In this document: piece by piece, positions 1 through 61,123 of the stretch
Position numbering within the stretch: position 1 is the stretch's first letter
Layout of the letters: each line of letters begins with the position of its first letter
DNA from: Escherichia coli
GTDB taxonomy: Bacteria > Pseudomonadota > Gammaproteobacteria > Enterobacterales > Enterobacteriaceae
Strand: one strand, 5' to 3'
NCBI RefSeq assembly: GCF_046105845.1
Contig: NZ_CP151004.1
DNA length: 64,000 nucleotides
The notes under the pieces: model-generated
The model's database searches: none
What the model saw: the letters and a program-made list of their open reading frames with translations, nothing else
What the model was told of the DNA's origin: nothing
Translations under genes and position numbers: made by a program

Positions 1-3000
1 GTGGTGTATTCCACATTGTTAATCGTAACGGTAAGCGGCGTGCCTTCAGCCAGCCCCGAGCTACTGCCGCTGACCACCAGCGCCTGCCCGTGCTCGATGA
101 TATTGACCACATCATCGCCTGCCACCGTATCGACCCGCAGACCGGGCAGATTGGCGTCGATGGTGATATCCCGCGTGCCGCTGCCGGTGTTGCCGTTTTG
201 ATTGGTGACCGAGGCGCTCACCGTTAAATCGCCATTACCCAGCGCCTGAATAGCGTCCGCCGGAATGCTCACGCTCCAGCTTAATCCCGGCTGTACGGTG
301 GTGGTGTAGGTATTGCCACCCAGCGTAACGGTTACCGCGTCGCCAACGGCGGCTCCAGTCACCTGCCCGCTGATGGTTTGCGCGACGCCCGCTTCGGCGG
401 CGTTAATAATATCGTCGGTTGCCACCGGGTTAATGGTCACGCCGGGCAGCGCGCTGTCAACCAGCACGTTATGGCTGGCGGTGGCGCTGTTGCCGATATT
501 ACTCGTCACCGCCGCCGTTACCGTGTAGTTGGCCTGGCCCAGTGCGGTTACCGCCGATGCCGGAACGGTGACGCTCCAGTTGCCGGAGGCGTCGGTCGTG
601 GTGGTGTAATTTTGCCCGTTCAGCGTCACGGTGATGGCGGTATTGGCTGGCTGATCGCTGGTACCGGTAATCTGGACATCAGCCCCTTTTTCGCTGGCGT
701 TTATCACATCATCGCCAGCAATGGTGTTAATACCAATTACTGGCGCGGCGGTATTGACCGTGACAGTCAGTGACTGGCTGCCCGTGTTTCCGGCGCGGTC
801 AGTCACTGACACGTTGATCGGATAACTGCCATCCACCAGTCCGCTGACAACGGAAGCCGGAACGCCCAGGCTCCAGTTGCCGGAACCATCCACCACCGTG
901 GTGTAATCCACATTATTCAGCGTCACGGTGACGATATCGCCCGCCTGAGCGCCAGTAACCGTGCCGCTGATGATTTGCGCCTGGGTGTGTTCCGGCGTGT
1001 TGATGACGTTATCGGTCGCCACCGGATTAATGGTTACCACCGGCGGCGTGGCATCGACCAGCGCCACGCGTGAGACGCTGGTCGGGTTACCGGCGATATC
1101 GTTCACGCTGGCGGTGACGGTGGCGTTGCCGTCAGCCAGTGCGCCAACGTTGGCGGCGGGAACGGTCACGCTCCAGGTGCCGTCTGGCTGCACGACGCCC
1201 TGGTACGTCTGCCCGTTCAGCGTCACCGTTACCGTCTGCCCCGGCTGGGCGTCGGTGGTGCCGGTGATTTGCAGATCCTGACCACTTTCGGCGGCGTTAA
1301 TGATGTTATCAGCGGTCAGTGGATCGATACTTAAGGCCGGGGCCTGGCTGTCGACGGTAATGGTGCGAGAGGTGTTGCCGGTATTGCCGCTGAGATCCGT
1401 CACAGAAGCGGTAATCGCCACCGCGCCGTCAGGCAGATTTCCCATCGCGGCGGCAGGTACCGTCAGACTCCAGGAGCCATCAGCCTGCACGGTAGTAGTA
1501 AAACTCTGTCCAGCCAGGGTTACTGTGACGGTTTGTCCTGTCTCGGCCTGTTGAGTGCTACCGGTAAGGGTCAGTGGCGCACCTTTTTCTGCGCCACTGA
1601 TAATGTCATCGCCGGAGACGGTGTTAATGGTGATTAACGGAGAGACACCGACCAGCGTGATTGCTCGAGACGCCGCGCCGGTATTTCCTGCAGTATCTGT
1701 CACGGTGACGAAAATCGTATTGGCTCCGCGATCCAGCGTGCGGGTTACCGCTGGGTCCAGCGCCACATTCCAGCTGCCATCTGCCAGCACAATGCCCGTC
1801 AGGACATGAGTGCCCAATTTCACCGTTACCGTATCGCCAGGAGAAGCACCGCTGACTTGTCCGGAGATGATCTGCGCGACGGCCTGCTCAGCATTATTAA
1901 GAATATCGTCGCCCGCTACGGTATTAACACTGACCACGGGTGCTGAGGTATCTACCGTGAAATTCGCGCTGTGGCTGGTGCTGTTCCCAGCCCGATCGCT
2001 GACACTGGCATTGACAGCGTAATTACCCTCCGCCAGCGCCTGGACTTCCGTGGCTGGCAGCGTCACTTGCCAGGTTCCGTCGCTACCGACGGTTGCTGTA
2101 TGGCTTTTCCCGTTGACGGTCAGTGTTACGGTTTGCCCCGCTTCTGCATTCGACGTGCCGCTCAGTACCAGCGCGACGTTATGTTCCGCAGCACTGATGA
2201 TGTTGTCCTGAGCGATGGTGTTGATGGCAAGCGTTGGCGGTTGGGTATCGACCGTTAAAAGCTGCGCGCCGGTGACCGTATTGCCTGTGGCGTCTTTCCC
2301 GCTGACCAGCACTGCCTGATTCCCTTCGCCTAACGCCTGTGCATCGGCGGTCGGCACCTGCACGCTCCAGGCACCGTTAGCGCCTACGCTGGTGGTGTAG
2401 GTTTTGCCGTTTAGCGTAACGGTGAGTTCTGTTCCCTGCGCCAGATGGCTACTGGTACCAGAAAGCGTAAACCCGGCGGCCTGTTCGCTGGCGTTAATAA
2501 TGTTATCGCCTGCGGTGGTGGCAACCTGCACGCTGGCCTGACTATTGTCGATGGTTAACGTTATCGAACCGGCGTCAGTGATGGTACTGCCGACAATTTG
2601 CACCACTGACCAGGTATGTTCACCTGCACTTTGCGTGGGTAACGAGACACTCCAGTGACCGTTGTTGTCTACCTGAGTACTGGCAATAGTATTGCCGTTA
2701 CTGTCTTTAATCTGAATAGTCGCCCCCGCCTGCCCGCTGCCGCTAAAGGTTGGCGTGGTATCATCGGTGATGTCATTGGTGGCGAGAATGCCGCGCTGAT
2801 CGCCCTGATTATCGATAACTAAAAATGATGGTGTGGCAACACCCGGTTCAGGCACAGGCTCAGCGGGTGGCGTAGGGTTATTAATCACTTCCGTTTTCGA
2901 GTCGCCATCACCACCGCTTGCCAGCAGTGCACCAAGCGCACCACCACCTACCGCCGCCCCCGCCAGCCAACCCCACGGGAAGGCGCTGGTCTGAGCAACG

Positions 3001-3368
3001 GTATCAAGAAATGGCGCAATGCTTTCAATCGCAGTGGTCTGGGCAGTCAGTTCTACGGGGGCTAATCCACCCGCAGCAGTATCGGCGAAGGTGACATGGG
3101 TTAGCTGTTGCCCATCGGCAAACACCAGTTCCGATTGTTCAGCTGTATTCGCCGCTTGCAGGAAATAACCGTTGCAGCGGATCACCGTGCCGTCCTGCAT
3201 ATAGATCAGCAGGTCATTTCCTTCACGGACGTAACGCGCAACGGCAGAGGCCTGAGCATGAACCTGCACCACGGAAGGCTCATAAATAACAACCGTGACG
3301 TCGCCAGGATTAATCAGCGTTTGTTTGACGGATGTTTTACGCGAAATAACATCAATAATCAGGCTCAT
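1..3368 (-). CDS. Giant tandem-repeat Ig-like adhesin, probable type I secretion substrate; 5' portion only, gene continues past window start
   Basis: Manual minus-strand translation from ATG at 3368-3366 (AGGAA 8 nt upstream) reads MSLIIDVISRKTSVKQTLINPGDVTVVIYEPSVVQVHAQA... with no stops over the stretch checked (3061-3368); downstream shows ~100-aa Thr/Val/Gly-rich repeats. Absent from ORF track because no stop lies in the window. Confidence 0.7.
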   Translation of the reverse strand, partial: MSLIIDVISRKTSVKQTLINPGDVTVVIYEPSVVQVHAQASAVARYVREGNDLLIYMQDGTVIRCNGYFLQAANTAEQSELVFADGQQLTHVTFADTAAGGLAPVELTAQTTAIESIAPFLDTVAQTSAFPWGWLAGAAVGGGALGALLASGGDGDSKTEVINNPTPPAEPVPEPGVATPSFLVIDNQGDQRGILATNDITDDTTPTFSGSGQAGATIQIKDSNGNTIASTQVDNNGHWSVSLPTQSAGEHTWSVVQIVGSTITDAGSITLTIDNSQASVQVATTAGDNIINASEQAAGFTLSGTSSHLAQGTELTVTLNGKTYTTSVGANGAWSVQVPTADAQALGEGNQAVLVSGKDATGNTVTGAQLLTVDTQPPTLAINTIAQDNIISAAEHNVALVLSGTSNAEAGQTVTLTVNGKSHTATVGSDGTWQVTLPATEVQALAEGNYAVNASVSDRAGNSTSHSANFTVDTSAPVVSVNTVAGDDILNNAEQAVAQIISGQVSGASPGDTVTVKLGTHVLTGIVLADGSWNVALDPAVTRTLDRGANTIFVTVTDTAGNTGAASRAITLVGVSPLITINTVSGDDIISGAEKGAPLTLTGSTQQAETGQTVTVTLAGQSFTTTVQADGSWSLTVPAAAMGNLPDGAVAITASVTDLSGNTGNTSRTITVDSQAPALSIDPLTADNIINAAESGQDLQITGTTDAQPGQTVTVTLNGQTYQGVVQPDGTWSVTVPAANVGALADGNATVTASVNDIAGNPTSVSRVALVDATPPVVTINPVATDNVINTPEHTQAQIISGTVTGAQAGDIVTVTLNNVDYTTVVDGSGNWSLGVPASVVSGLVDGSYPINVSVTDRAGNTGSQSLTVTVNTAAPVIGINTIAGDDVINASEKGADVQITGTSDQPANTAITVTLNGQNYTTTTDASGNWSVTVPASAVTALGQANYTVTAAVTSNIGNSATASHNVLVDSALPGVTINPVATDDIINAAEAGVAQTISGQVTGAAVGDAVTVTLGGNTYTTTVQPGLSWSVSIPADAIQALGNGDLTVSASVTNQNGNTGSGTRDITIDANLPGLRVDTVAGDDVVNIIEHGQALVVSGSSSGLAEGTPLTVTINNVEYT

Positions 3369-3470
3369 AATGGCATTCCTGATAAATGGCGCACATCCTT
3401 AGCGAGTCCATTTATCTAAATAAGACAAAGGTAATCACTTAACAACGGCCCACTATTAATAATGGCAGGA

Positions 3471-4826
3471 TTATTTCAAGTCGGGTAAGTCGTTGTATAA
3501 GCCCTGTTTAATTCCCGCTAATGGAATAAGGTTATTCACCGCAGCGGCATAATTTACGGCGGCGACCCAGCCATCATAATTGGCATTTATTTCAGCCGAT
3601 TGCGCCTGAAAGACATCTTGCTCGACGGTTAATAGATCATTCAGACTGCGTTTGCCCAATTTATATTCATTTTGGTACACTTCTCGCGTTTTGTGCGCAC
3701 TTTCGGATTGTGCTAAACCGGCTTCTTCGCGACCTCGTGCGCCGGTCCAGTTCGCATATGCCACAGACGCTCGTTGCAGCACATCCAGTTTTGCCTGTTC
3801 GACCTGCGAGGCAGAGATTTTTTGTTGCCCTTCAGCTTGTTGCACCTGGGCTGAAACTGCGCCGCCCTGATACAGCGGCGCGTTAACGTTCAGTTGTAAC
3901 TGATCATCCCAATACGAGCGGTCGCTGGTCTGGTAGCGCGTTTTGCCCCCCTGAATACTCAGCGTTGGCCAGTATTGCGCTTTCGTTTTTTCCACGCCGT
4001 ACTGTGCTGACTGGCGTAAGTTTTCTGCCGCCAGCACCAGCGGGATGGACTGGTAATCAATATTTTTCAGCGACACCGGCTGCTCGGCTAATTCAGCAGG
4101 TGGCGCGGCTATCGCCTCCGGCTGTACGCCAGTGAGCACCGCCAGTTGCGCTTTGGCGCTTGCCATCTGCGCCTGATATTGCTCCAGCGTTGAGCGCATT
4201 CCGGCAATGCGCGTCTGGGCTTGTAATTCATCCGACGATGAGTTCAGGCCAGCGTTAGCGCGCAATGCCGCCATGTTGTAGACGTTTTCCAGCGAGTGAA
4301 TATTGCGTTGAGCCGCATCGCACAAAGCCTGATAACGACTGACTTCCATATAGGCAGTCGCCGTTTTCTCTGCAACATCGGTTAAGGTTGCCATCAATTT
4401 AAAGCGGTAGCTGTCACGGGCGGCAGTTTGCAGATTGATATCGTTGTTTGTTTTACCAAAGTCATACACCAGCTGTGTCAGGGTTATGCCATACGAAACG
4501 TTGTTATCAAGCCTGCCGCTGGAATCCGTTTGTCGGGACGGCCCCGCGTTGCCGGTTAATCCAACGTGCGGATACCAGGCACTTTTGGCTTCATCAATTT
4601 GCGCTTCGCCAATGCCTATCTGCGCCGCCTGTTGAGTGACGTCGGGATTTCGCGCAAAGGCGCGTAATATACTTTCCTGTAAAGATAATCGGGCAACTGG
4701 CGTTACCGCTGGGGCGTTCGCCCATTGTGGCAGCGGTGCAGCAATTGTAGCTTCTCCCATCACCATAAAACTTATTAAAAAAATAAACCCATTATTTTTA
4801 CGGCTTTTAAACTGGAATCGCGCCAT
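3471..4826 (-). CDS. TolC-family outer membrane efflux protein, probable type I secretion outer-membrane component
   Basis: 451-aa ORF with N-terminal signal-like hydrophobic segment and TolC-like composition; sits directly upstream of the adhesin gene on the same strand. Confidence 0.75.
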   Translation of the reverse strand: MARFQFKSRKNNGFIFLISFMVMGEATIAAPLPQWANAPAVTPVARLSLQESILRAFARNPDVTQQAAQIGIGEAQIDEAKSAWYPHVGLTGNAGPSRQTDSSGRLDNNVSYGITLTQLVYDFGKTNNDINLQTAARDSYRFKLMATLTDVAEKTATAYMEVSRYQALCDAAQRNIHSLENVYNMAALRANAGLNSSSDELQAQTRIAGMRSTLEQYQAQMASAKAQLAVLTGVQPEAIAAPPAELAEQPVSLKNIDYQSIPLVLAAENLRQSAQYGVEKTKAQYWPTLSIQGGKTRYQTSDRSYWDDQLQLNVNAPLYQGGAVSAQVQQAEGQQKISASQVEQAKLDVLQRASVAYANWTGARGREEAGLAQSESAHKTREVYQNEYKLGKRSLNDLLTVEQDVFQAQSAEINANYDGWVAAVNYAAAVNNLIPLAGIKQGLYNDLPDLK

Positions 4827-5129
4827 AGATAAGTCACTTCCTTCCAGGTCATTATTTTAACTGGTTTTTATAACCAGTCTCATTTTATTAAGAAGGGTAA
4901 TAACTTGTGCATCTCTTTTGTCGATCATTGATATGGGCAAAGAAATGCAGCTAAAAAGCTTATACGTTATTTATTTAGAATACACTACGACTTTTAGATT
5001 ACCATCATACACATTAAGAATAATCCACGGTAATAAGTGATTAGCATCACAGATTTATCGCGTATATATCATTTTTTTGTGACTTATTTATTAAAGGAAT
5101 AAGAAAGGAAATTTGAATTAAAGACAAAG

Positions 5130-5152
5130 GCGCAGTACAGGCTGTACTGCGC
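5130..5152 (-). terminator. Hairpin downstream of ybaT
   Basis: Inverted repeat gcgcagtacag/ctgtactgcgc just 3' of the ybaT stop; weak U-tract. Confidence 0.4.
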
Positions 5153-7653: not shown

Positions 7654-10158
7654 ATGTCACAAACTATCGACCTGACCCTGGACGGCCTGTCCTGCGGTCA
7701 CTGCGTTAAACGCGTGAAAGAAAGTCTCGAACAGCGCCCGGATGTTGAGCAGGCGGATGTGTCTGTCACTGAAGCGCACGTTACCGGGACTGCCAGTGCA
7801 GAACAGCTGATCGAAACCATCAAACAAGCGGGTTATGACGCATCTGTAAGCCACCCAAAGGCTAAACCGCTGGCGGAGTCATCAATCCCGTCGGAAGCAC
7901 TGACAGCGGTTTCTGAGGCGCTTCCGGCAGCGACCGCCGATGACGATGACAGCCAGCAGTTGCTGCTGAGCGGCATGAGCTGCGCCAGCTGTGTCACCCG
8001 CGTACAAAATGCGCTGCAAAGCGTACCGGGCGTCACTCAGGCACGGGTAAACCTGGCGGAGCGTACTGCGCTGGTGATGGGCAGTGCCTCCCCACAAGAT
8101 TTAGTGCAGGCGGTGGAAAAAGCGGGCTACGGCGCGGAAGCGATTGAAGATGACGCTAAACGCCGCGAGCGCCAGCAAGAAACCGCCGTCGCTACGATGA
8201 AGCGCTTCCGCTGGCAGGCGATTGTCGCACTGGCGGTGGGTATCCCGGTGATGGTCTGGGGGATGATCGGCGATAACATGATGGTCACCGCCGACAACCG
8301 CAGCCTGTGGTTGGTTATCGGCCTGATAACCCTGGCGGTAATGGTTTTCGCCGGCGGGCATTTTTACCGCAGCGCATGGAAAAGCCTGCTGAACGGTGCA
8401 GCGACGATGGATACGCTGGTGGCGCTAGGTACTGGCGTGGCGTGGCTCTATTCGATGAGCGTCAACCTGTGGCCGCAGTGGTTCCCGATGGAAGCGCGAC
8501 ATCTTTATTACGAAGCCAGTGCGATGATTATCGGTTTGATTAATCTCGGCCATATGCTGGAAGCACGCGCACGTCAGCGTTCTTCTAAGGCGCTGGAGAA
8601 ATTACTCGATTTAACCCCACCGACGGCGCGCCTGGTTACTGACGAAGGTGAAAAAAGCGTGCCTCTGGCAGAAGTGCAGCCAGGTATGTTGCTGCGCCTG
8701 ACGACCGGCGATCGCGTGCCGGTAGATGGCGAGATTACCCAGGGCGAAGCATGGCTGGATGAAGCGATGCTGACGGGCGAACCAATCCCGCAGCAAAAAG
8801 GCGAAGGCGATAGCGTCCATGCCGGGACAGTGGTACAGGACGGCAGTGTGCTGTTTCGTGCCAGTGCGGTCGGCAGCCATACTACGCTGTCACGAATCAT
8901 TCGCATGGTGCGCCAGGCCCAGAGCAGCAAGCCTGAAATCGGCCAACTGGCGGATAAAATCTCCGCTGTGTTTGTGCCGGTGGTGGTAGTCATTGCGCTG
9001 GTCAGTGCGGCAATCTGGTATTTCTTTGGCCCGGCACCGCAAATTGTTTATACCCTGGTGATTGCCACCACGGTGCTGATTATCGCCTGTCCGTGTGCGC
9101 TGGGACTGGCGACGCCGATGTCGATTATTTCGGGCGTCGGGCGGGCGGCTGAGTTTGGTGTGCTGGTGCGGGACGCCGACGCGCTGCAACGCGCCAGTAC
9201 GCTCGACACCGTGGTGTTCGATAAAACCGGGACGCTGACCGAAGGGAAGCCGCAGGTTGTCGCAGTAAAAACATTTGCTGATATTGATGAAGCGCAAGCA
9301 TTGCGTCTGGCGGCGGCGCTGGAGCAAGGTTCCAGCCACCCGCTGGCACGGGCGATCCTCGATAAAGCAGGTGATATGCAGCTACCGCAGGTCAACGGTT
9401 TCCGCACATTGCGCGGGCTGGGTGTGAGCGGTGAAGCTGAAGGTCATGCGGTATTGCTGGGCAATCAGGCGCTGTTAAATGACCAGCAAGTTGATACTAA
9501 AGCGATTGAGGCAGATATTTCAGCTCAGGCATCGCAAGGGGCAACGCCTGTGCTGCTGGCGGTTGACGGGAAAGCGGTGGCCTTGCTGGCAGTACGCGAT
9601 CCGTTGCGTAACGATAGCGTGGCGGCGCTGCAACGTCTGCATAAAGCGGGATATCGTCTGGTGATGTTGACCGGGGATAACCCAACCACCGCCAATGCGA
9701 TCGCCAAAGAAGCAGGGATTGATGAGGTGATCGCCGGGGTGCTGCCGGACGGTAAAGCCGAAGCGATCAAACGTCTGCAAAGTGAAGGACGTCAGGTGGC
9801 AATGGTGGGCGACGGCATTAACGACGCGCCAGCGCTGGCCCAGGCGGATGTCGGTATTGCGATGGGTGGCGGCAGTGATGTTGCCATTGAAACCGCGGCG
9901 ATTACCCTGATGCGCCATAGCCTGATGGGTGTTGCAGATGCGCTCGCGATTTCCCGCGCAACGCTGCGCAATATGAAGCAGAACCTGCTCGGTGCGTTTA
10001 TCTACAACAGCATTGGTATTCCGGTCGCCGCCGGTATTTTGTGGCCGTTCACTGGAACACTGCTTAACCCGGTGGTTGCCGGAGCGGCAATGGCGCTATC
10101 GTCGATTACCGTAGTGAGTAACGCCAACCGGTTACTGCGGTTTAAACCGAAAGAGTGA
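7654..10158 (+). CDS. copA: Cu(I)-translocating P-type ATPase
   Basis: 834-aa ORF with two N-terminal GMSCxxC metal-binding domains, CPC and DKTGT motifs. Confidence 0.96.
7854..7860 (+). other. copA: Programmed -1 ribosomal frameshift site in copA (slippery heptamer C CCA AAG) giving the CopA(Z) chaperone
   Basis: CCCAAAG lies in the 0 frame at codons 67-69; the -1 frame reads CCC AAA GGC TAA, terminating after ~70 aa. Confidence 0.7.
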
Positions 10159-10234
10159 TTGGTATTTACTTAATGCGTTTGTGAGATCCAGTTCTTGTTG
10201 CGCTCCTTTTATGAGTAATGCCATATAAAGTGAC

Positions 10235-10560
10235 TGGCGCAGGGAGCGCGCAGGGGGCGGCCAATCGCCGCCGCCCCCTGCCCCCCCGGGCTCTGGCGAA
10301 CAAAATCGCCGCTGCGCGGTACCCTCAGCTTATCCCTTGCGGCTACCGGGTCGGGCGCGAGGTAACATCCCTGTAAAACGCGCCCTCAGCCCACATCCAT
10401 GTGGGCTGCCCCGGCCTTCAGGGAACGCCTCGGCGATTTTGACGCCACCAACACCGGTGCAGTCTTTCGTTTCAAAGCAAAAACAATTTTTCGATCATAT
10501 TTAAGCTACCACTGAACAAGCCTCATAACTCCATTTGCGCCATCCCTCCCTGCGCGCTAG
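10235..10560. repeat. GC-rich intergenic element with nested inverted repeats, unknown function
   Basis: 10-bp inverted repeat gcgcagggag (10237-10246) / ctccctgcgc (10546-10555); inner inverted repeat aaaatcgccg (10302-10311) / cggcgatttt (10431-10440); perfect 11-bp GC stem 10251-10261 / 10270-10280; hairpin 10388-10407. No ORF of 60 aa or more. Confidence 0.4.
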
Positions 10561-10586
10561 CATGATATTTCACAAAGGGAGGTCGT

Positions 10587-11381
10587 ATGGATCTGTTGTA
10601 CCGGGTAAAAACGCTTTGGGCCGCGCTGCGCGGTAATCATTACACCTGGCCTGCTATCGATATCTCTCTTCCCGGCAATCGCCATTTTCATCTGCTCGGC
10701 AGTATTCATATGGGTAGCCACGATATGGCTCCCCTGCCCACCCGTTTGCTCAAAAAGCTCAAAAACGCCGATGCGCTGATCGTCGAGGCGGATGTTTCCA
10801 CCAGCGATACGCCTTTTGCTAATTTGCCTGCCTGCGAGGCGCTGGAAGAGCGCATTAGCGAGGAGCAACTCCAAAACCTGCAGCACATTAGCCAGGAGAT
10901 GGGCATTTCTACCTCACTCTTTTCTACCCAACCGCTGTGGCAAATCGCGATGGTTCTTCAGGCGACACAGGCGCAAAAACTGGGGCTGCGGGCAGAGTAT
11001 GGTATCGATTACCAGCTATTGCAGGCGGCGAAGCAACAACATAAATCCGTGATTGAACTGGAAGGGGCAGAAAACCAGATTGCCATGTTGCTCCAGCTCC
11101 CTGACAACGGACTGGCGCTGCTGGACGATACGCTGACCCACTGGCACACCAATGCACGGTTGCTGCAACAAATGATGAGCTGGTGGCTGAACACGCCGCC
11201 GCAAAATAATGAAATAACGCTGCCTAATACGTTCAGTCAGTCGCTGTACGATGTGTTGATGCATCAGCGAAATCTCGCCTGGCGGGATAAATTACGCGCC
11301 ATGCCGCCGGGGCGATATGTGGTCGCGGTCGGTGCACTACACCTGTATGGAGAAGGGAATTTACCGCAAATGTTGCGCTAA
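10587..11381 (+). CDS. ybaP: TraB-family protein YbaP
   Basis: 264-aa ORF matching recalled YbaP. Confidence 0.9.
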   Translation: MDLLYRVKTLWAALRGNHYTWPAIDISLPGNRHFHLLGSIHMGSHDMAPLPTRLLKKLKNADALIVEADVSTSDTPFANLPACEALEERISEEQLQNLQHISQEMGISTSLFSTQPLWQIAMVLQATQAQKLGLRAEYGIDYQLLQAAKQQHKSVIELEGAENQIAMLLQLPDNGLALLDDTLTHWHTNARLLQQMMSWWLNTPPQNNEITLPNTFSQSLYDVLMHQRNLAWRDKLRAMPPGRYVVAVGALHLYGEGNLPQMLR

Positions 11382-11463
11382 AAAAATGGCCAATATCGCT
11401 ATTGGCCCGTCAAAGAGGAATTTCATTTTTTTATTATTATGCCGTCACTTTAAGCGACGGTGT
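11381..11463 (-). ncRNA. chiX: ChiX (MicM/SroB) Hfq-dependent sRNA
   Basis: Minus strand reads ACACCGTCGCTTAAAGTGACGGCATAATAATAAAAAAATGAAATTCCTCTTTGACGGGCCAATAGCGATATTGGCCATTTTTTT, matching recalled ChiX including terminator hairpin and U-tract; in the ybaK-ybaP intergenic region as in K-12. Confidence 0.85.
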
Positions 11464-17106: not shown

Positions 17107-17111
17107 ACGGT

Positions 17112-17914
<803 letters not shown>

Positions 17915-18018
17915 ATCAGCATACTTGTCCTTAGCCTTCTGCAGTGACAGCTGGTAGTACAGCGTGCTTCTGGCCAGCCCTGCAGCCTTTAACAGGTCAG
18001 ACTGGCAGTGTCCGCACC

Positions 18019-18549
18019 TCAGGCTCCGGATGACTTTCGTTTTTTCTCCAGCTCCTGGCGCTTTTTTTCCAGGAGATGCTCCTGCATGGCTTTCAGATAT
18101 GCATTTTCTGCGCGAAGATAACGCAGCTCATTCTTCATCTCTTCCGGCGTCATGTTTGCCTCGTTTTCATGGGTATCATCAGAACGGGTCATGCTTTTCT
18201 CCTTCCTGCGCCTGATAAAGGCCTCATTACCAGATTTGCGGTAGCCTTTTATCCAGTTTTTAACCGTGTTGTGGCTGGGAATGTTAAACCGGGCAGCTAC
18301 CCGGGGTAGAGACTCAGAATGCCCGAGAGCATAAAGAACCACGCAAAGTTTATCTTCAGGAGAATAGCTACGCTTGTGTCTGCAATCCAGTGCCCGAGGA
18401 CCGTGAAGAAGAAAAAGATTAATCCAGTGTGAGAGGCTGGTGTGAGAAAGTTGAAAGAGTTTTGCCGTAGAAATGATGCCTGCATGACCAGCCAGGTAAT
18501 GATTTACAGCGGCAAGTTTTACTTCAAATGAATGTTTCATAAACTGCAC
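18019..18549 (-). CDS. IS3-family transposase OrfA (HTH plus leucine zipper)
   Basis: 176-aa ORF; C-terminal heptad leucines (LRYLRAENAYLKAMQEHLLEKKRQELEKK). Confidence 0.85.
   Translation of the reverse strand: MQFMKHSFEVKLAAVNHYLAGHAGIISTAKLFQLSHTSLSHWINLFLLHGPRALDCRHKRSYSPEDKLCVVLYALGHSESLPRVAARFNIPSHNTVKNWIKGYRKSGNEAFIRRRKEKSMTRSDDTHENEANMTPEEMKNELRYLRAENAYLKAMQEHLLEKKRQELEKKRKSSGA
18061..18067 (-). other. A AAA AAG programmed -1 frameshift motif at the end of IS orfA
   Basis: Minus strand reads CTG GAA AAA AAG CGC in the orfA frame, the classical IS3-family slippery heptamer. Confidence 0.6.
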
Positions 18550-18591
18550 CTTCAGATGTCAGATTATGTCCAACATTTGGGGTGCAGTTCA

Positions 18592-18654
18592 GCCATCGCA
18601 TCAGGCATTGAGAGCAAAATGCCAGATGCGGCGTGAACGCCTTATCTGGCCTAC
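18592..18654. repeat. REP/BIME sequences: right half of the interrupted REP plus a second REP
   Basis: gccatcgcatcaggc completes the interrupted palindrome; gccagatgcggcgtgaacgccttatctggcctac (18621-18654) matches the REP consensus. Confidence 0.6.
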
Positions 18655-18668
18655 GAACCGACGATAAC

Positions 18669-25970: not shown

Positions 25971-27902
25971 TCAAATGGGGCGGATACTTTCTTCATCCAG
26001 CTCCGCATCGAAGAACCGACGCAGGGTCTGAATATTATTATCCGCAATAATGGACTCGCGCGCCTGCGCAAGTTTTTCTTCGTATATCGCCTGACGCCAT
26101 TCCAGCGGCGTACGCACCGCGGGATTATCATCTTCAACGATAGTCAGTTCAACCGTTGAACCTTTTAACGTGCTCAACGCTTCAGCCAGTTTTTGCTGTG
26201 CACCGCGGTTGTTCAAATGCCGCTGAGAGGAGCGCAAATGCAGACATACTGCGTTGTCGCTCTCCTCTTTCCAGGCATTTAGCGCCACCTGTTCGACCAG
26301 TTTTGGTAGCGAAAGTTGGCTCACCTGTGCCGCCCACGGGTCGCGCTCAATGGCTTCTGCCGCCAGCTTCGCCGCCAGTTCCGGCGTTTTTTCATGTTCC
26401 AGCGCTTTTTTTAGCGCCTTCGGCGTGGCGACCACTTCTTTTTGCTGCATCACTGGAGTGGTGGCCTTCCAGCGATACGCTTCTTTTTTGGCTGGCGCTT
26501 TTTCCAGCGCCGATGGCACCGGGCGCGCCTGAACGCGATCGGTGACCGAAGCCAGTCTTTCCAGCGCAGCGTTATTCACCGGCCGCGCGCGGGTAGCGGC
26601 TGCCGGTTCACTCTTTTTTGCTTTGGTTGCTCCCTGCACGCGCTGCAACTGCTGGCGCGCCGCCAGCACCTGGCTGGTGGTTTCCGGGAGCGGTACAGTC
26701 GGTGCCTGCTGCGGCGCTGATTGCGGTTGCGGCGGCACCTGTGTTGGCGTCATTACTGCCGTTGGCGCGACGGGCGCAAAGGACTGGCGTGGCACTTCTG
26801 GCTCAGGCAGCGGCATACGCGGATGGAACGCCAGCGCGCGAAGCAGCGTCATCTCAACGCCCATACGGCGGTCTGGCGCATACGGTAATTCTTTGCGACC
26901 AATCAACAGCGTCTGATAGTAAAGCTGAATATCCGTCGGCGGTATGGTGCGCGCCAGTTCACGCATCCGCAGCTCGATGGCAGCCATGTCGTTGCCAAGT
27001 GCAGCAGGCGAAAGTTGTACCATCGCAATACGATGCAACAGACCGAGCATTTCCACCAGCAACGCTTCCCACTCGATACCACGGGCAGCGGCTTCATTAA
27101 TCAGCGCCATTACGCGCTCGCCGTTGGCCTCGACCATCGCTTCAACCAGCGACAGCGCCTGATCGTCGTCAAGCGTACCCAGCATCGCACTGACCGCCTG
27201 AGTTGAAACCTGGCCGTCACCGCTGGCAATCGCCTGGTCGGTCAGACTTAAGGCATCTCGCAGGCTGCCTTCAGCGGCGCGTGCCAGCAATTGCAGCGCC
27301 CGCGGCTCGTGAGCGATATGTTCTTCGTTGAGGATGTGCTCAAGCTGATGGCGAATTTGCTCGACATCCAGCGCCTTGAGATGAAATTGCAGACAACGTG
27401 ACAAAATCGTCACCGGCAATTTCTGCGGATCGGTCGTCGCCAGCAGAAACTTAACGTGCTCCGGCGGCTCTTCAAGGGTTTTTAACAGTGCGTTAAAGCT
27501 GTGGCGCGACAGCATATGCACTTCGTCGATCAAATAAACTTTGAAACGACCACGCGCCGGAGCGTACTGGACGTTATCCAGCAGGTCGCGGGTATCTTCA
27601 ACTTTGGTGCGCGAGGCGGCGTCGATTTCAATCAGATCGACAAAGCGCCCCTGCTCGATTTCACGACAGTTATCGCACACGCCGCACGGCGTCGCGGTAA
27701 TGCCGGTTTCGCAGTTTAGCCCCTTCGCCAGCAGTCGGGCGATAGAGGTTTTTCCGACGCCACGGGTACCGGAAAAAAGATAAGCATGATGAATACGCCC
27801 TAACGACAAGCCGTTCGCCAGTGCGGTCAGCACATGTTCCTGGCCGACGACGTCAGCAAAGGTTTGTGGGCGCCATTTTCGGGCTAAGACCTGATAACTC
27901 AT
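25971..27902 (-). CDS. dnaX: DNA polymerase III subunits tau and gamma
   Basis: 643-aa ORF with AAA+ motifs (GTRGVGKT) and internal frameshift site. Confidence 0.97.
   Translation of the reverse strand: MSYQVLARKWRPQTFADVVGQEHVLTALANGLSLGRIHHAYLFSGTRGVGKTSIARLLAKGLNCETGITATPCGVCDNCREIEQGRFVDLIEIDAASRTKVEDTRDLLDNVQYAPARGRFKVYLIDEVHMLSRHSFNALLKTLEEPPEHVKFLLATTDPQKLPVTILSRCLQFHLKALDVEQIRHQLEHILNEEHIAHEPRALQLLARAAEGSLRDALSLTDQAIASGDGQVSTQAVSAMLGTLDDDQALSLVEAMVEANGERVMALINEAAARGIEWEALLVEMLGLLHRIAMVQLSPAALGNDMAAIELRMRELARTIPPTDIQLYYQTLLIGRKELPYAPDRRMGVEMTLLRALAFHPRMPLPEPEVPRQSFAPVAPTAVMTPTQVPPQPQSAPQQAPTVPLPETTSQVLAARQQLQRVQGATKAKKSEPAAATRARPVNNAALERLASVTDRVQARPVPSALEKAPAKKEAYRWKATTPVMQQKEVVATPKALKKALEHEKTPELAAKLAAEAIERDPWAAQVSQLSLPKLVEQVALNAWKEESDNAVCLHLRSSQRHLNNRGAQQKLAEALSTLKGSTVELTIVEDDNPAVRTPLEWRQAIYEEKLAQARESIIADNNIQTLRRFFDAELDEESIRPI
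26613..26619 (-). other. dnaX: dnaX programmed -1 frameshift site (A AAA AAG) producing gamma
   Basis: Minus strand reads GCAGGGAGCAACCAAAGCAAAAAAGAGTGAACCGGCAGCC...: SD-like AGGGAG upstream, heptamer, then a stem-loop; the -1 frame stops at GAG TGA. Confidence 0.85.
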
Positions 27903-43262: not shown

Positions 43263-43376
43263 GGGTGGGGGCCCTGCCAGCTACATCCCGGCACACGCGT
43301 CATCTGCCTTGGCTGCTTCCTTCCGGACCTGACCTGGTAAACAGAGTAGCGTTGCGGGAGAACCAACAGAGCCCCC
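43263..43376 (-). ncRNA. ffs: 4.5S RNA (signal recognition particle RNA)
   Basis: Minus strand reads GGGGGCTCTGTTGGTTCTCCCGCAACGCTACTCTGTTTACCAGGTCAGGTCCGGAAGGAAGCAGCCAAGGCAGATGACGCGTGTGCCGGGATGTAGCTGGCAGGGCCCCCACCC, matching recalled 114-nt ffs. Confidence 0.95.
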
Positions 43377-60936: not shown

Positions 60937-61018
60937 AGAGCTCTCTCTTAGTTTAATTTCCGCCAGGTAATCAGATGACACGACTGTGCTTCACGCCATC
61001 TATTAACATGTACGTCAG

Positions 61019-61046
61019 TATATGGGGATGTTTCCCCCACATTCAA
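61019..61046 (-). promoter_or_regulatory. Heat-shock (sigma32-type) promoter of lon
   Basis: Minus strand reads TTGAAT (-35), 13-nt spacer, CCCCATATA (-10). Confidence 0.55.
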
Positions 61047-61123
61047 CGCCGAGAATAGAGGAAAAATTAAAGGGGAGATAAAATCCCCCCTTTTTGGTTA
61101 ACTAATTGTATGGGAATGGTTAA

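What the first reader, a model, noticed from the sequence alone, without database searches (positions are those of the whole stretch)
1..3368. 5' end of a giant tandem-repeat Ig-like adhesin gene that runs off the window
The minus strand from ATG 3368 encodes a ~120-aa N-terminal module, then successive ~100-aa Thr/Val/Gly/Ala-rich units with recurring motifs (TVTLNGxxYT..., SGxxTVTV...) typical of bacterial Ig-like repeats in BapA/SiiE/LapA-type adhesins. The plus-strand ORF-track ORFs here are antisense frames of the same repeats. The gene is missing from the ORF track only because its stop is outside the window. K-12, as I recall it, has cueR directly after ybaT, so this is an accessory locus and the best candidate in the window for a system outside the core annotation.
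Basis: partly seen in the sequence, partly recalled or inferred. Interest (0 to 1): 0.75.

Follow-up and report, generated by a model that had tools for sequence, protein, structure and literature searches.

The report
Known E. coli giant adhesin gene (SiiEA)

Summary
The minus strand from ATG 3368 to base 3 is open for 1122 codons. It encodes a BapA-prefix N-terminal domain (aa 5-132), one Ig-like domain, then about nine 99-100-aa Ca2+-stabilised Ig-like repeats.

It passes NCBI's dedicated model for "BapA-related adhesin SiiEA" (501 bits, cutoff 425). It is 97.8% identical in DNA to annotated siiEA genes. The gene upstream (3471-4826, minus strand) is a TolC-family type I secretion outer-membrane protein.

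In the closest complete genome the gene is 6,925 aa. It ends in FG-GAP repeats, RTX repeats and a type I secretion target domain.

The cluster is O-island 28 of EHEC O157:H7, shown in 2025 to mediate Ca2+- and RstA-dependent adherence. The RstA box is in the window at 5107-5120. The cluster is present in 959 of 5426 complete E. coli genomes, and K-12 lacks it.

Two smaller points emerged. The K-12 ybaT-cueR spacer retains the 3' end of the island's hlyD-family gene, so K-12-type genomes carry a deletion scar and not an empty site. The LapG-like TAAG motif at aa 97-100 is not conserved in homologues.

Verdict: real, correctly read, already known, low interest.

The parts
1..3368 (-). 5' 16% (codons 1-1122) of siiEA, the giant T1SS-secreted Ig-repeat adhesin gene. 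The gene runs off the window at base 1.
   Evidence: Open frame. NCBIfam NF047714 adhesin_SiiEA scores 501.4 bits against a cutoff of 425. 97.8% nt identity to annotated siiEA. dN/dS is 0.09-0.13 against five alleles.
2973..3356 (-). BapA prefix-like N-terminal domain (aa 5-132), the proposed periplasmic retention or plug module.
   Evidence: Pfam PF22783, E=1.5e-18. NCBIfam biofilm_BapA_N scores 70 bits. Many invariant residues across Enterobacter, Pluralibacter and Apirhabdus homologues. The AF2 model is beta-rich with pLDDT 66-85 over aa 30-120.
3069..3080 (-). TAAG (aa 97-100), which matches the LapG di-alanine cleavage consensus and lies at a position analogous to LapA 107-TAAG-110.
   Evidence: Motif position. 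LapA site from PMC10690286. Not conserved in homologues, which have AASG, TGETAG or AGEASG, so it is probably fortuitous.
2910..2969 (-). Conserved Gly/Ala-rich hydrophobic segment W-L-AGAAVGGGALGALLASGG (aa 134-153), followed by a Pro-rich spacer.
   Evidence: Highest hydropathy in the first 200 aa. W134, A136, G142, G143, G146-L149, G152 and G153 are invariant in 9 homologues. Disordered in the AF2 model.
2547..2810 (-). First Ig-like domain (aa 187-274).
   Evidence: Pfam Big_13 E=5.6e-9 and Big_6 E=6.4e-10.
1..2540 (-). About nine tandem 99-100-aa Ca2+-stabilised Ig-like extender repeats (aa ~277-1122); the last is cut by the window edge.
   Evidence: NCBIfam Ca_tandemer scores 780.9 bits in 10 stretches, and Ig_like_ice 354.5 bits. 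PDB 4P99 MpAFP RII tetra-tandemer E=4.2e-42 and 5IRB RTX-adhesin E=9e-32. Period.
3369..3470 (-). 102-bp spacer between the tolC-family stop and the siiEA ATG, with AGGAA at 3376-3380.
   Evidence: Sequence. No terminator-like site was found here, which fits co-transcription.
3471..4826 (-). TolC-family type I secretion outer-membrane channel gene (451 aa; tolC28/z0608 orthologue).
   Evidence: Pfam OEP x2, E=7e-27 and 2e-20. TIGR01844 type_I_sec_TolC scores 415.6 bits against a cutoff of 225. Annotated as such in relatives.
4827..5135 (-). Regulatory region of the cluster, with sigma70-like hexamers at 4911-4882 and 4883-4854.
   Evidence: Consensus scan only. PMC12758282 reports promoter activity and RstA binding for the orthologous region.
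5107..5120 (-). RstA box TAATTCAAATTTCC, one mismatch to the published TAATTCAAATTACC, at -294 to -281 from the tolC-family ATG.
   Evidence: The position is nearly the same as the -294 to -280 in PMC12758282.
5130..5152 (-). ybaT terminator hairpin. Homology with K-12 ends inside its 3' arm at about 5135, which is the left edge of the island.
   Evidence: Terminator scan. Alignment with K-12.

Best explanation
Window 1-3368 (minus strand) is the 5' end of siiEA. This is the roughly 6,925-aa Ca2+-dependent repeat adhesin of the E. coli ybaT-cueR type I secretion cluster, known as O-island 28 in EHEC O157:H7 (rtxA28/rtxB28, z0609/z0615).

Shown here:
- The reading frame, the domain content, family membership, the upstream TolC-family gene and the RstA box.
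- Purifying selection on the part in the window.

Shown in the nearest complete relatives, not in the window:
- About 54 extender repeats.
- A C-terminal FG-GAP region, RTX nonapeptides and a T1SS target domain.
- An LssB-type ABC exporter and a HlyD adaptor.

Inferred mechanism, from established knowledge of RTX adhesins (LapA, MpIBP, SiiE):
- The protein is exported C-terminus first through the ABC/MFP/TolC-family channel.
- Extracellular Ca2+ folds the Ig-like repeats into a long rigid stalk that projects the C-terminal binding modules beyond the LPS.
- The N-terminal BapA-prefix domain, followed by the conserved Gly/Ala segment, stays behind and keeps the protein tethered in the outer-membrane channel.

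Published work on O157:H7 and O145:H28 reports that the cluster promotes epithelial adherence and early gut colonisation and is activated by RstA and Ca2+.
For: - Open 1122-codon frame.
- BapA_N plus Big_13/Big_6 hits.
- adhesin_SiiEA scores 501 bits against a cutoff of 425, and Ca_tandemer has 10 stretches.
- MpAFP RII 4P99 at E=4e-42.
- TolC-family T1SS gene upstream.
- 957 of 5426 complete E. coli genomes hold at least 80% of the 3.47-kb query, annotated siiEA; best identity is 97.8%.
- Full locus in strain 1190 is ybaT | TolC-family | siiEA 20,778 nt | T1SS permease/ATPase | HlyD | cueR.
- The ABC protein matches TIGR03375 LssB at 835 bits (cutoff 693), the adaptor matches TIGR01843 HlyD, and the adhesin C-terminus matches TIGR03661 T1SS target domain.
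- FG-GAP_3 x3 and HemolysinCabind in the C-terminal 1,200 aa; RTX-like nonapeptides at aa 6777-6823.
- 33+21 Ca_tandemer stretches across the full-length relative, from two pieces that overlap by about 100 aa.
- dN/dS 0.09-0.13.
- RstA box at the published position.
- Functional data in PMC12758282.
Against: - Only 16% of the gene is in the window, so its integrity in this genome is unknown. In O157:H7 EC4115 the gene is a pseudogene (frameshift, first in-frame stop at codon 1462).
- The tethering role of the N-terminal domain is inferred. The AF2 model was poor overall (pLDDT 56), and neither Foldseek nor a profile search of PDB sequences linked it to a solved retention domain.
- The adherence phenotype was measured in strains whose gene is split, not in an intact allele like the relatives of this window.
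Confidence: 0.93

Rival explanations
1. The gene in this genome is a decayed pseudogene, as in O157:H7, and the intact N-terminal 1122 codons are only the undamaged first part.
For: - PGAP flags siiEA of O157:H7 EC4115 as 'frameshifted; internal stop'. Its first stop is at codon 1462, beyond the stretch the window covers, and its length is not a multiple of 3.
- Split or truncated versions exist in ETEC1748 and GDSC2227PM.
Against: - The nearest alleles (strain 1190, EC974, WP7-S17, Ecol_545) are intact at 6,924-6,925 aa.
- dN/dS is about 0.1 in the window part.
Confidence: 0.15
2. It is a LapA-type adhesin whose release from the cell is controlled by a LapG-like periplasmic protease cutting at TAAG (aa 97-100) under LapD/c-di-GMP control.
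For: - TAAG sits at aa 97-100 inside the prefix domain, analogous to LapA 107-TAAG-110.
- The exporter is LssB-type and the C-terminus matches the T1SS_VCA0849 domain, named after V. cholerae VCA0849 (CraA). CraA is a substrate of V. cholerae LapG.
Against: - The di-alanine is not conserved in homologues at 49-58% identity, and it is shifted in an 86-88%-identical E. coli-type allele.
- No BTLCP or LapD gene lies in or next to the locus in strain 1190.
- From my own knowledge, unverified here, E. coli is not known to encode LapG/LapD.
Confidence: 0.07
3. It is an RTX cytotoxin, as in the old annotation 'RTX family exoprotein', and not an adhesin.
For: RTX nonapeptides and a T1SS in the relative.
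Against: - More than 80% of the protein is Ig-like extender repeats.
- No acyltransferase gene is in the locus.
- The published phenotype is adherence and colonisation.
Confidence: 0.02

Closest known systems
E. coli SiiEA / O-island 28 RTX adhesin (z0609+z0615, ECUMN_0527; NCBIfam NF047714)
   Same: Same gene: 95-98% nt identity, the same position after ybaT and the TolC-family gene, the same RstA box, and it passes the naming model.
   Different: The window allele is 2.2% diverged from the nearest of 5426 complete genomes, while the neighbouring core DNA is 99.5% identical. Unlike the O157:H7 copy it shows no disruption in the part seen.
Marinomonas primoryensis ice-binding adhesin MpIBP (region II extender domains, PDB 4P99) and Marinobacter MhLap (5IRB, 6XI3)
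   Same: The repeats are the same Ca2+-stabilised Ig-like 'tandemer' type (E=4e-42). The overall RTX-adhesin plan is shared: N-terminal anchor, extender, C-terminal ligand-binding region plus RTX and T1SS signal.
   Different: In MpIBP the roughly 120 repeats are near-identical (from memory). Here the repeats are 31-55% identical. The C-terminal cargo is an FG-GAP region, not an ice-binding domain.
Pseudomonas fluorescens LapA / V. cholerae FrhA and CraA (LapG/LapD-controlled adhesins)
   Same: LssB-type exporter, a dedicated TolC-family channel, an N-terminal module followed by a Gly-rich stretch, and a TAAG motif at a similar position.
   Different: The di-alanine is not conserved in the family, and there are no lapG/lapD genes at the locus.
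Salmonella enterica BapA (SPI-9) and SiiE (SPI-4)
   Same: Giant T1SS-secreted Ig-repeat adhesins of enterobacteria. The N-terminus matches the BapA-prefix models.
   Different: SiiE has a coiled-coil flanked by beta-sheet domains at its N-terminus, and its retention is regulated by the SiiA/SiiB proton channel (PMC6272769). Neither is present here. Despite the name, the protein is BapA-like and not SiiE-like. Salmonella BapA itself was not recovered by the word-based search with the N-terminus.

Membership tests
SiiEA (NCBIfam NF047714, 'BapA-related adhesin SiiEA') = O-island 28 adhesin | N-terminal 229-position signature scoring above the curated cutoff of 425 bits | tested here: met
   501.4 bits, aa 1-234 aligned to profile positions 1-229 of 229.
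SiiEA (NCBIfam NF047714, 'BapA-related adhesin SiiEA') = O-island 28 adhesin | Chromosomal position: downstream of ybaT and a TolC-family gene, upstream of T1SS ABC/MFP genes and cueR | tested here: inconclusive
   The ybaT and TolC-family side is in the window and matches. The ABC/MFP/cueR side lies outside the window and is seen only in relatives.
SiiEA (NCBIfam NF047714, 'BapA-related adhesin SiiEA') = O-island 28 adhesin | Near-identity to annotated siiEA genes | tested here: met
   93.5-97.8% nt identity over 3,470 nt in 957 genomes. 96.3-98.8% aa identity.
T1SS-secreted RTX repeat adhesins (LapA/MpIBP/BapA class) | Tandem Ca2+-binding Ig-like extender repeats | tested here: met
   Ca_tandemer 780.9 bits in 10 stretches. 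4P99 at E=4e-42.
T1SS-secreted RTX repeat adhesins (LapA/MpIBP/BapA class) | C-terminal RTX nonapeptides and an uncleaved T1SS secretion signal | not testable with these tools
   The C-terminus is outside the window. In the 97.8%-identical relative there are HemolysinCabind, TIGR03661 and nonapeptides at aa 6777-6823.
T1SS-secreted RTX repeat adhesins (LapA/MpIBP/BapA class) | Dedicated T1SS genes (OMP, ABC, MFP) adjacent | tested here: met
   The OMP gene is in the window. ABC (LssB subfamily, 835 bits) and HlyD-family MFP are in the relative.
T1SS-secreted RTX repeat adhesins (LapA/MpIBP/BapA class) | N-terminal retention module that plugs the outer-membrane channel | tested here: inconclusive
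   A BapA_N domain and a conserved Gly/Ala segment are present. The AF2 model was weak, and neither the fold search nor the sequence search linked it to a solved retention domain.
LapG/LapD-regulated adhesins | Conserved (T/P/A)AAG cleavage site after the retention domain | tested here: not met
   TAAG is present at aa 97-100 in this allele but not conserved in homologues.
LapG/LapD-regulated adhesins | BTLCP protease and LapD receptor encoded in the genome | not testable with these tools
   None at the locus in strain 1190.
Salmonella SiiE (SPI-4) | SiiA/SiiB MotAB-like accessory genes and an N-terminal coiled-coil (PMC6272769) | tested here: not met
   The locus has only OMP, adhesin, ABC and MFP. 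The N-terminus is a beta-rich BapA prefix.

The most novel reading that the evidence does not exclude
SiiEA-type adhesins of E. coli and Enterobacter may be tethered and released by a route that uses neither LapG/LapD nor SiiA/SiiB. The invariant W-x-AGAA-GGGA-GALL-GG segment after the BapA-prefix domain would act as the element lodged in the dedicated TolC-family channel, or in the membrane. A secondary point is that the K-12-type ybaT-cueR spacer, which must carry the cueR promoter, is built from the 3' end of the lost hlyD-family gene.
Probability: 0.15. Interest if true: 0.45.

Novelty: already known. Interest (0 to 1): 0.12.

Why it matters
For the scan, it shows that the most eye-catching feature of this window is a correctly recognised gene that is already catalogued. 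It has a dedicated NCBI naming model, occurs in about 18% of complete E. coli genomes, and has a 2025 functional study as O-island 28. No new system is hiding here.

Three modest points remain:
- The locus is a clean presence/deletion dimorphism. The K-12 state is a deletion scar, which argues against reading OI-28 as an acquisition by EHEC.
- The O157:H7 copy used for functional work is a disrupted version of a single 6,925-aa gene.
- How this adhesin is retained on E. coli, which has no LapG/LapD or SiiAB genes at the locus, is unresolved.

Tried and rejected
- **DNA tandem repeats.** Tandem Repeats Finder on 1-3500 found only two trivial 7-9-bp arrays. The 300-bp units are too diverged, at most 59% DNA identity.
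- **N-terminal fold.** The AF2 model of the first 240 aa from a 9-sequence alignment had pLDDT 56 and pTM 0.47, with only aa 30-120 moderately confident. Foldseek against PDB gave nothing at E<=0.001; the top hits were weak matches to RTX beta-roll proteins with TM about 0.2. I draw no conclusion from it.
- **PDB sequence search with the N-terminal profile.** It hit only the Ig-like repeats and nothing for the prefix domain.
- **LapG-site idea.** The TAAG at aa 97-100 looked like a LapA-type cleavage site but is not conserved. I demoted it to a low-probability rival.
- **Two LapA papers.** The Smith et al. 2018 papers on the LapA retention module (PMC5869472, PMC6112007) are not in the library. 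The Chem Rev T1SS review had nothing on retention modules in the part of its text that is held.
- **Chance open frame.** Rejected because of the family hits, the near-identical annotated genes and dN/dS of about 0.1.
- **Plus-strand ORFs as real genes.** Rejected. They are 66-131 aa and lie wholly inside a homology-supported CDS.
Full report
**1. Observation**

Translating window 1-3368 on the minus strand gives 1122 codons without a stop, beginning at ATG 3368 and leaving the window at base 1. AGGAA sits 7 nt upstream of the ATG (sequence printed).

The product has three parts.
- An N-terminal module: Pfam BapA_N (PF22783), aa 5-132, E=1.5e-18.
- One Ig-like domain at aa 187-274.
- From about aa 277, units whose anchor motif recurs at 287, 387, 486, 586, 686, 785, 885, 984 and 1084, a period of 99-100 aa.

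The repeat region is 15% T, 12.8% A, 12.2% V and 10.2% G, which explains its 58-60% GC against roughly 50% in the genes next to it.

The units are 31-55% identical as protein and at most 59% as DNA, so Tandem Repeats Finder sees nothing. Identity is higher at lags of 299 and 199 aa than at 100 aa, so neighbouring units are less alike than units two or three apart.

The plus-strand ORFs listed for 1-3419 are 66-131 aa and all lie inside this CDS.

**2. What it is**

NCBIfam gives four relevant hits.
- Ca_tandemer (Ca2+-stabilised repeat adhesin): 780.9 bits in 10 stretches.
- Ig_like_ice: 354.5 bits.
- biofilm_BapA_N: 70 bits.
- The dedicated naming model NF047714, 'BapA-related adhesin SiiEA': 501.4 bits against a cutoff of 425, covering the whole 229-position profile.

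The closest solved structures by sequence are the Ca2+-rigidified extender domains of the Marinomonas ice-binding adhesin (4P99, E=4.2e-42) and Marinobacter RTX adhesins (5IRB, 6XI3).

The ORF immediately upstream on the same strand (3471-4826, 451 aa) is a TolC-family type I secretion channel. It has Pfam OEP twice and TIGR01844 at 415.6 bits against a cutoff of 225. Beyond it lie ybaT, glsA and copA.

**3. Related loci**

A 3,470-nt query finds the gene in 959 of 5,426 complete E. coli genomes. It is always chromosomal and annotated siiEA. The best identity is 97.8%, and O157:H7 is at 95.2%. Core DNA from the same window reaches 99.5% to the best genomes, so this allele is somewhat more diverged than its surroundings.

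In strain 1190 the locus reads ybaT | TolC-family | siiEA (20,778 nt, 6,925 aa) | T1SS permease/ATPase | HlyD adaptor | cueR. The components were identified as follows.
- The exporter belongs to the LssB subfamily (TIGR03375, 835 bits, cutoff 693), and the adaptor to TIGR01843.
- The adhesin has 33+21 Ca_tandemer stretches, counted in two pieces that overlap by about 100 aa.
- Its C-terminal 1,200 aa carry three FG-GAP_3 repeats and a HemolysinCabind match.
- It has RTX-like nonapeptides at aa 6777-6823 and the TIGR03661 T1SS C-terminal target domain.

Three further alleles that differ from the window by dS 0.14-0.21 are 20,775-20,778 nt long. The repeat number is therefore stable, as expected when the units are too diverged to recombine.

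Between the window and five alleles dN/dS is 0.09-0.13, which indicates purifying selection on the part we can see.

In O157:H7 EC4115, PGAP marks the gene 'frameshifted; internal stop'. The first in-frame stop is at codon 1462, and the length is 20,150 nt, which is not a multiple of three.

**4. Literature**

The cluster is O-island 28 of EHEC O157:H7 EDL933 (z0608 tolC28, z0609 rtxA28, z0615 rtxB28, z0634 hlyB28, z0635 hlyD28). PMC12758282 (2025) reports the following.
- Deleting the island or any of its genes lowers Caco-2 adherence and mouse colonisation.
- RstA binds a box TAATTCAAATTACC at -294 to -280 upstream of tolC28.
- Ca2+ raises expression and adherence.

The window has TAATTCAAATTTCC at 5107-5120 on the minus strand, which is -294 to -281 from its tolC-family ATG.

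The 'two RTX proteins' of the 2025 paper correspond to the pieces of one disrupted gene when compared with intact alleles. This is my inference.

**5. Mechanism**

The following are shown, here or in relatives: the domain plan, a complete T1SS, purifying selection and the RstA box.

The export mechanism is inferred from established knowledge of RTX adhesins.
- The protein is exported C-terminus first.
- Extracellular Ca2+ folds the extender repeats into a rigid stalk that presents the FG-GAP/RTX end.
- The N-terminal prefix domain holds the protein in the TolC-family channel.

I tested the retention idea as far as I could.
- The prefix domain and a Gly/Ala-rich segment (aa 134-153) are strongly conserved in homologues from Enterobacter, Pluralibacter, Apirhabdus and a thrips symbiont at 49-58% identity.
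- The AF2 model was too weak (pLDDT 56) to assign a fold.
- No solved structure matches the prefix domain by sequence.

A TAAG motif at aa 97-100 mimics the LapG site of LapA (107-TAAG-110) but is not conserved. No lapG/lapD or siiA/siiB genes lie at the locus. How the protein is held and released in E. coli is therefore unresolved.

**6. Insertion or deletion?**

K-12 has cueR 124 bp after ybaT. Homology between K-12 and the window ends inside the 3' arm of the ybaT terminator, at about window 5135.

The last 95 bp or so of the K-12 spacer align with the 3' end of the island's HlyD-family gene, with a few substitutions and a 1-bp gap. That C-terminus aligns to the very end of the HlyD profile (positions 217-422 of 422), so it is genuine coding sequence. 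In island-bearing strains the HlyD stop overlaps the cueR start.

K-12-type genomes therefore carry a deletion scar of about 26 kb and not an unoccupied site. The same junction, at 98.5% identity or more in the sampled rows, is present in 4,458 of 5,426 genomes. Together with the 959 island-bearing genomes this accounts for nearly all of them, which points to one deletion allele. I did not find this stated in the papers I read. The 2025 paper speaks of 'acquisition'.

**7. Verdict**

The feature is a well-annotated, recently characterised adhesin/T1SS cluster: already known, low interest.

Noticed in passing
L002 (K-12) 8890-8993 vs L003 (strain 1190) 9997-10095; left edge at window ~5135: The K-12 ybaT-cueR spacer is homologous to the last ~95 bp of the island's HlyD-family gene, so K-12-type genomes carry a ~26-kb deletion scar. 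4,458 of 5,426 genomes share this junction. The cueR promoter of K-12 would then lie in former hlyD coding sequence.
   Followed up: partly
L004 (O157:H7 EC4115) 3207-23356: In O157:H7, siiEA is a pseudogene (frameshift, first stop at codon 1462). The 2025 functional paper treats the fragments z0609 and z0615 as two separate RTX adhesins.
   Followed up: partly
L001, L005, L006, L007 (siiEA CDS): Gene length is almost invariant (20,775-20,778 nt) across alleles that differ from the window's allele by dS 0.06-0.21, despite ~54 tandem repeats. The repeats are only 31-55% identical to one another.
   Followed up: partly
window 17107-18668: An IS3-family IS1397 copy is inserted between ybaL and gsk. 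It is 99.7% identical to annotated copies. Other strains have ~130 bp here, or IS621 in strain 1190.
   Followed up: yes
window 10159-10586: ybaQ (HigA-family antitoxin gene) is absent between copA and ybaP. It and the K-12 REP-like repeats next to it are replaced by about 370 bp of unrelated GC-rich sequence. Strains 1190 and Ecol_545 have the same spacing.
   Followed up: partly
literature: PMC12758282 reports OI-28 in 0/55 ExPEC and 0/10 EAEC. However, ECUMN_0527 of UMN026 and EAEC isolate C801-09 carry siiEA (PMC3256949), and UTI isolate EC974 has an intact copy.
   Followed up: no
window aa 277-1122 of the adhesin (nt 1-2540): Self-identity is higher at lags of 299 and 199 aa (38% and 35%) than at 100 aa (27.5%), so adjacent repeats are less alike than repeats two or three apart.
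   Followed up: no
window 11380-11463, 26574-26638, 43272-43368, 61008-61103: Ordinary Rfam hits: sroB (ChiX) sRNA, the dnaX frameshift element, SRP RNA and sraA.
   Followed up: no
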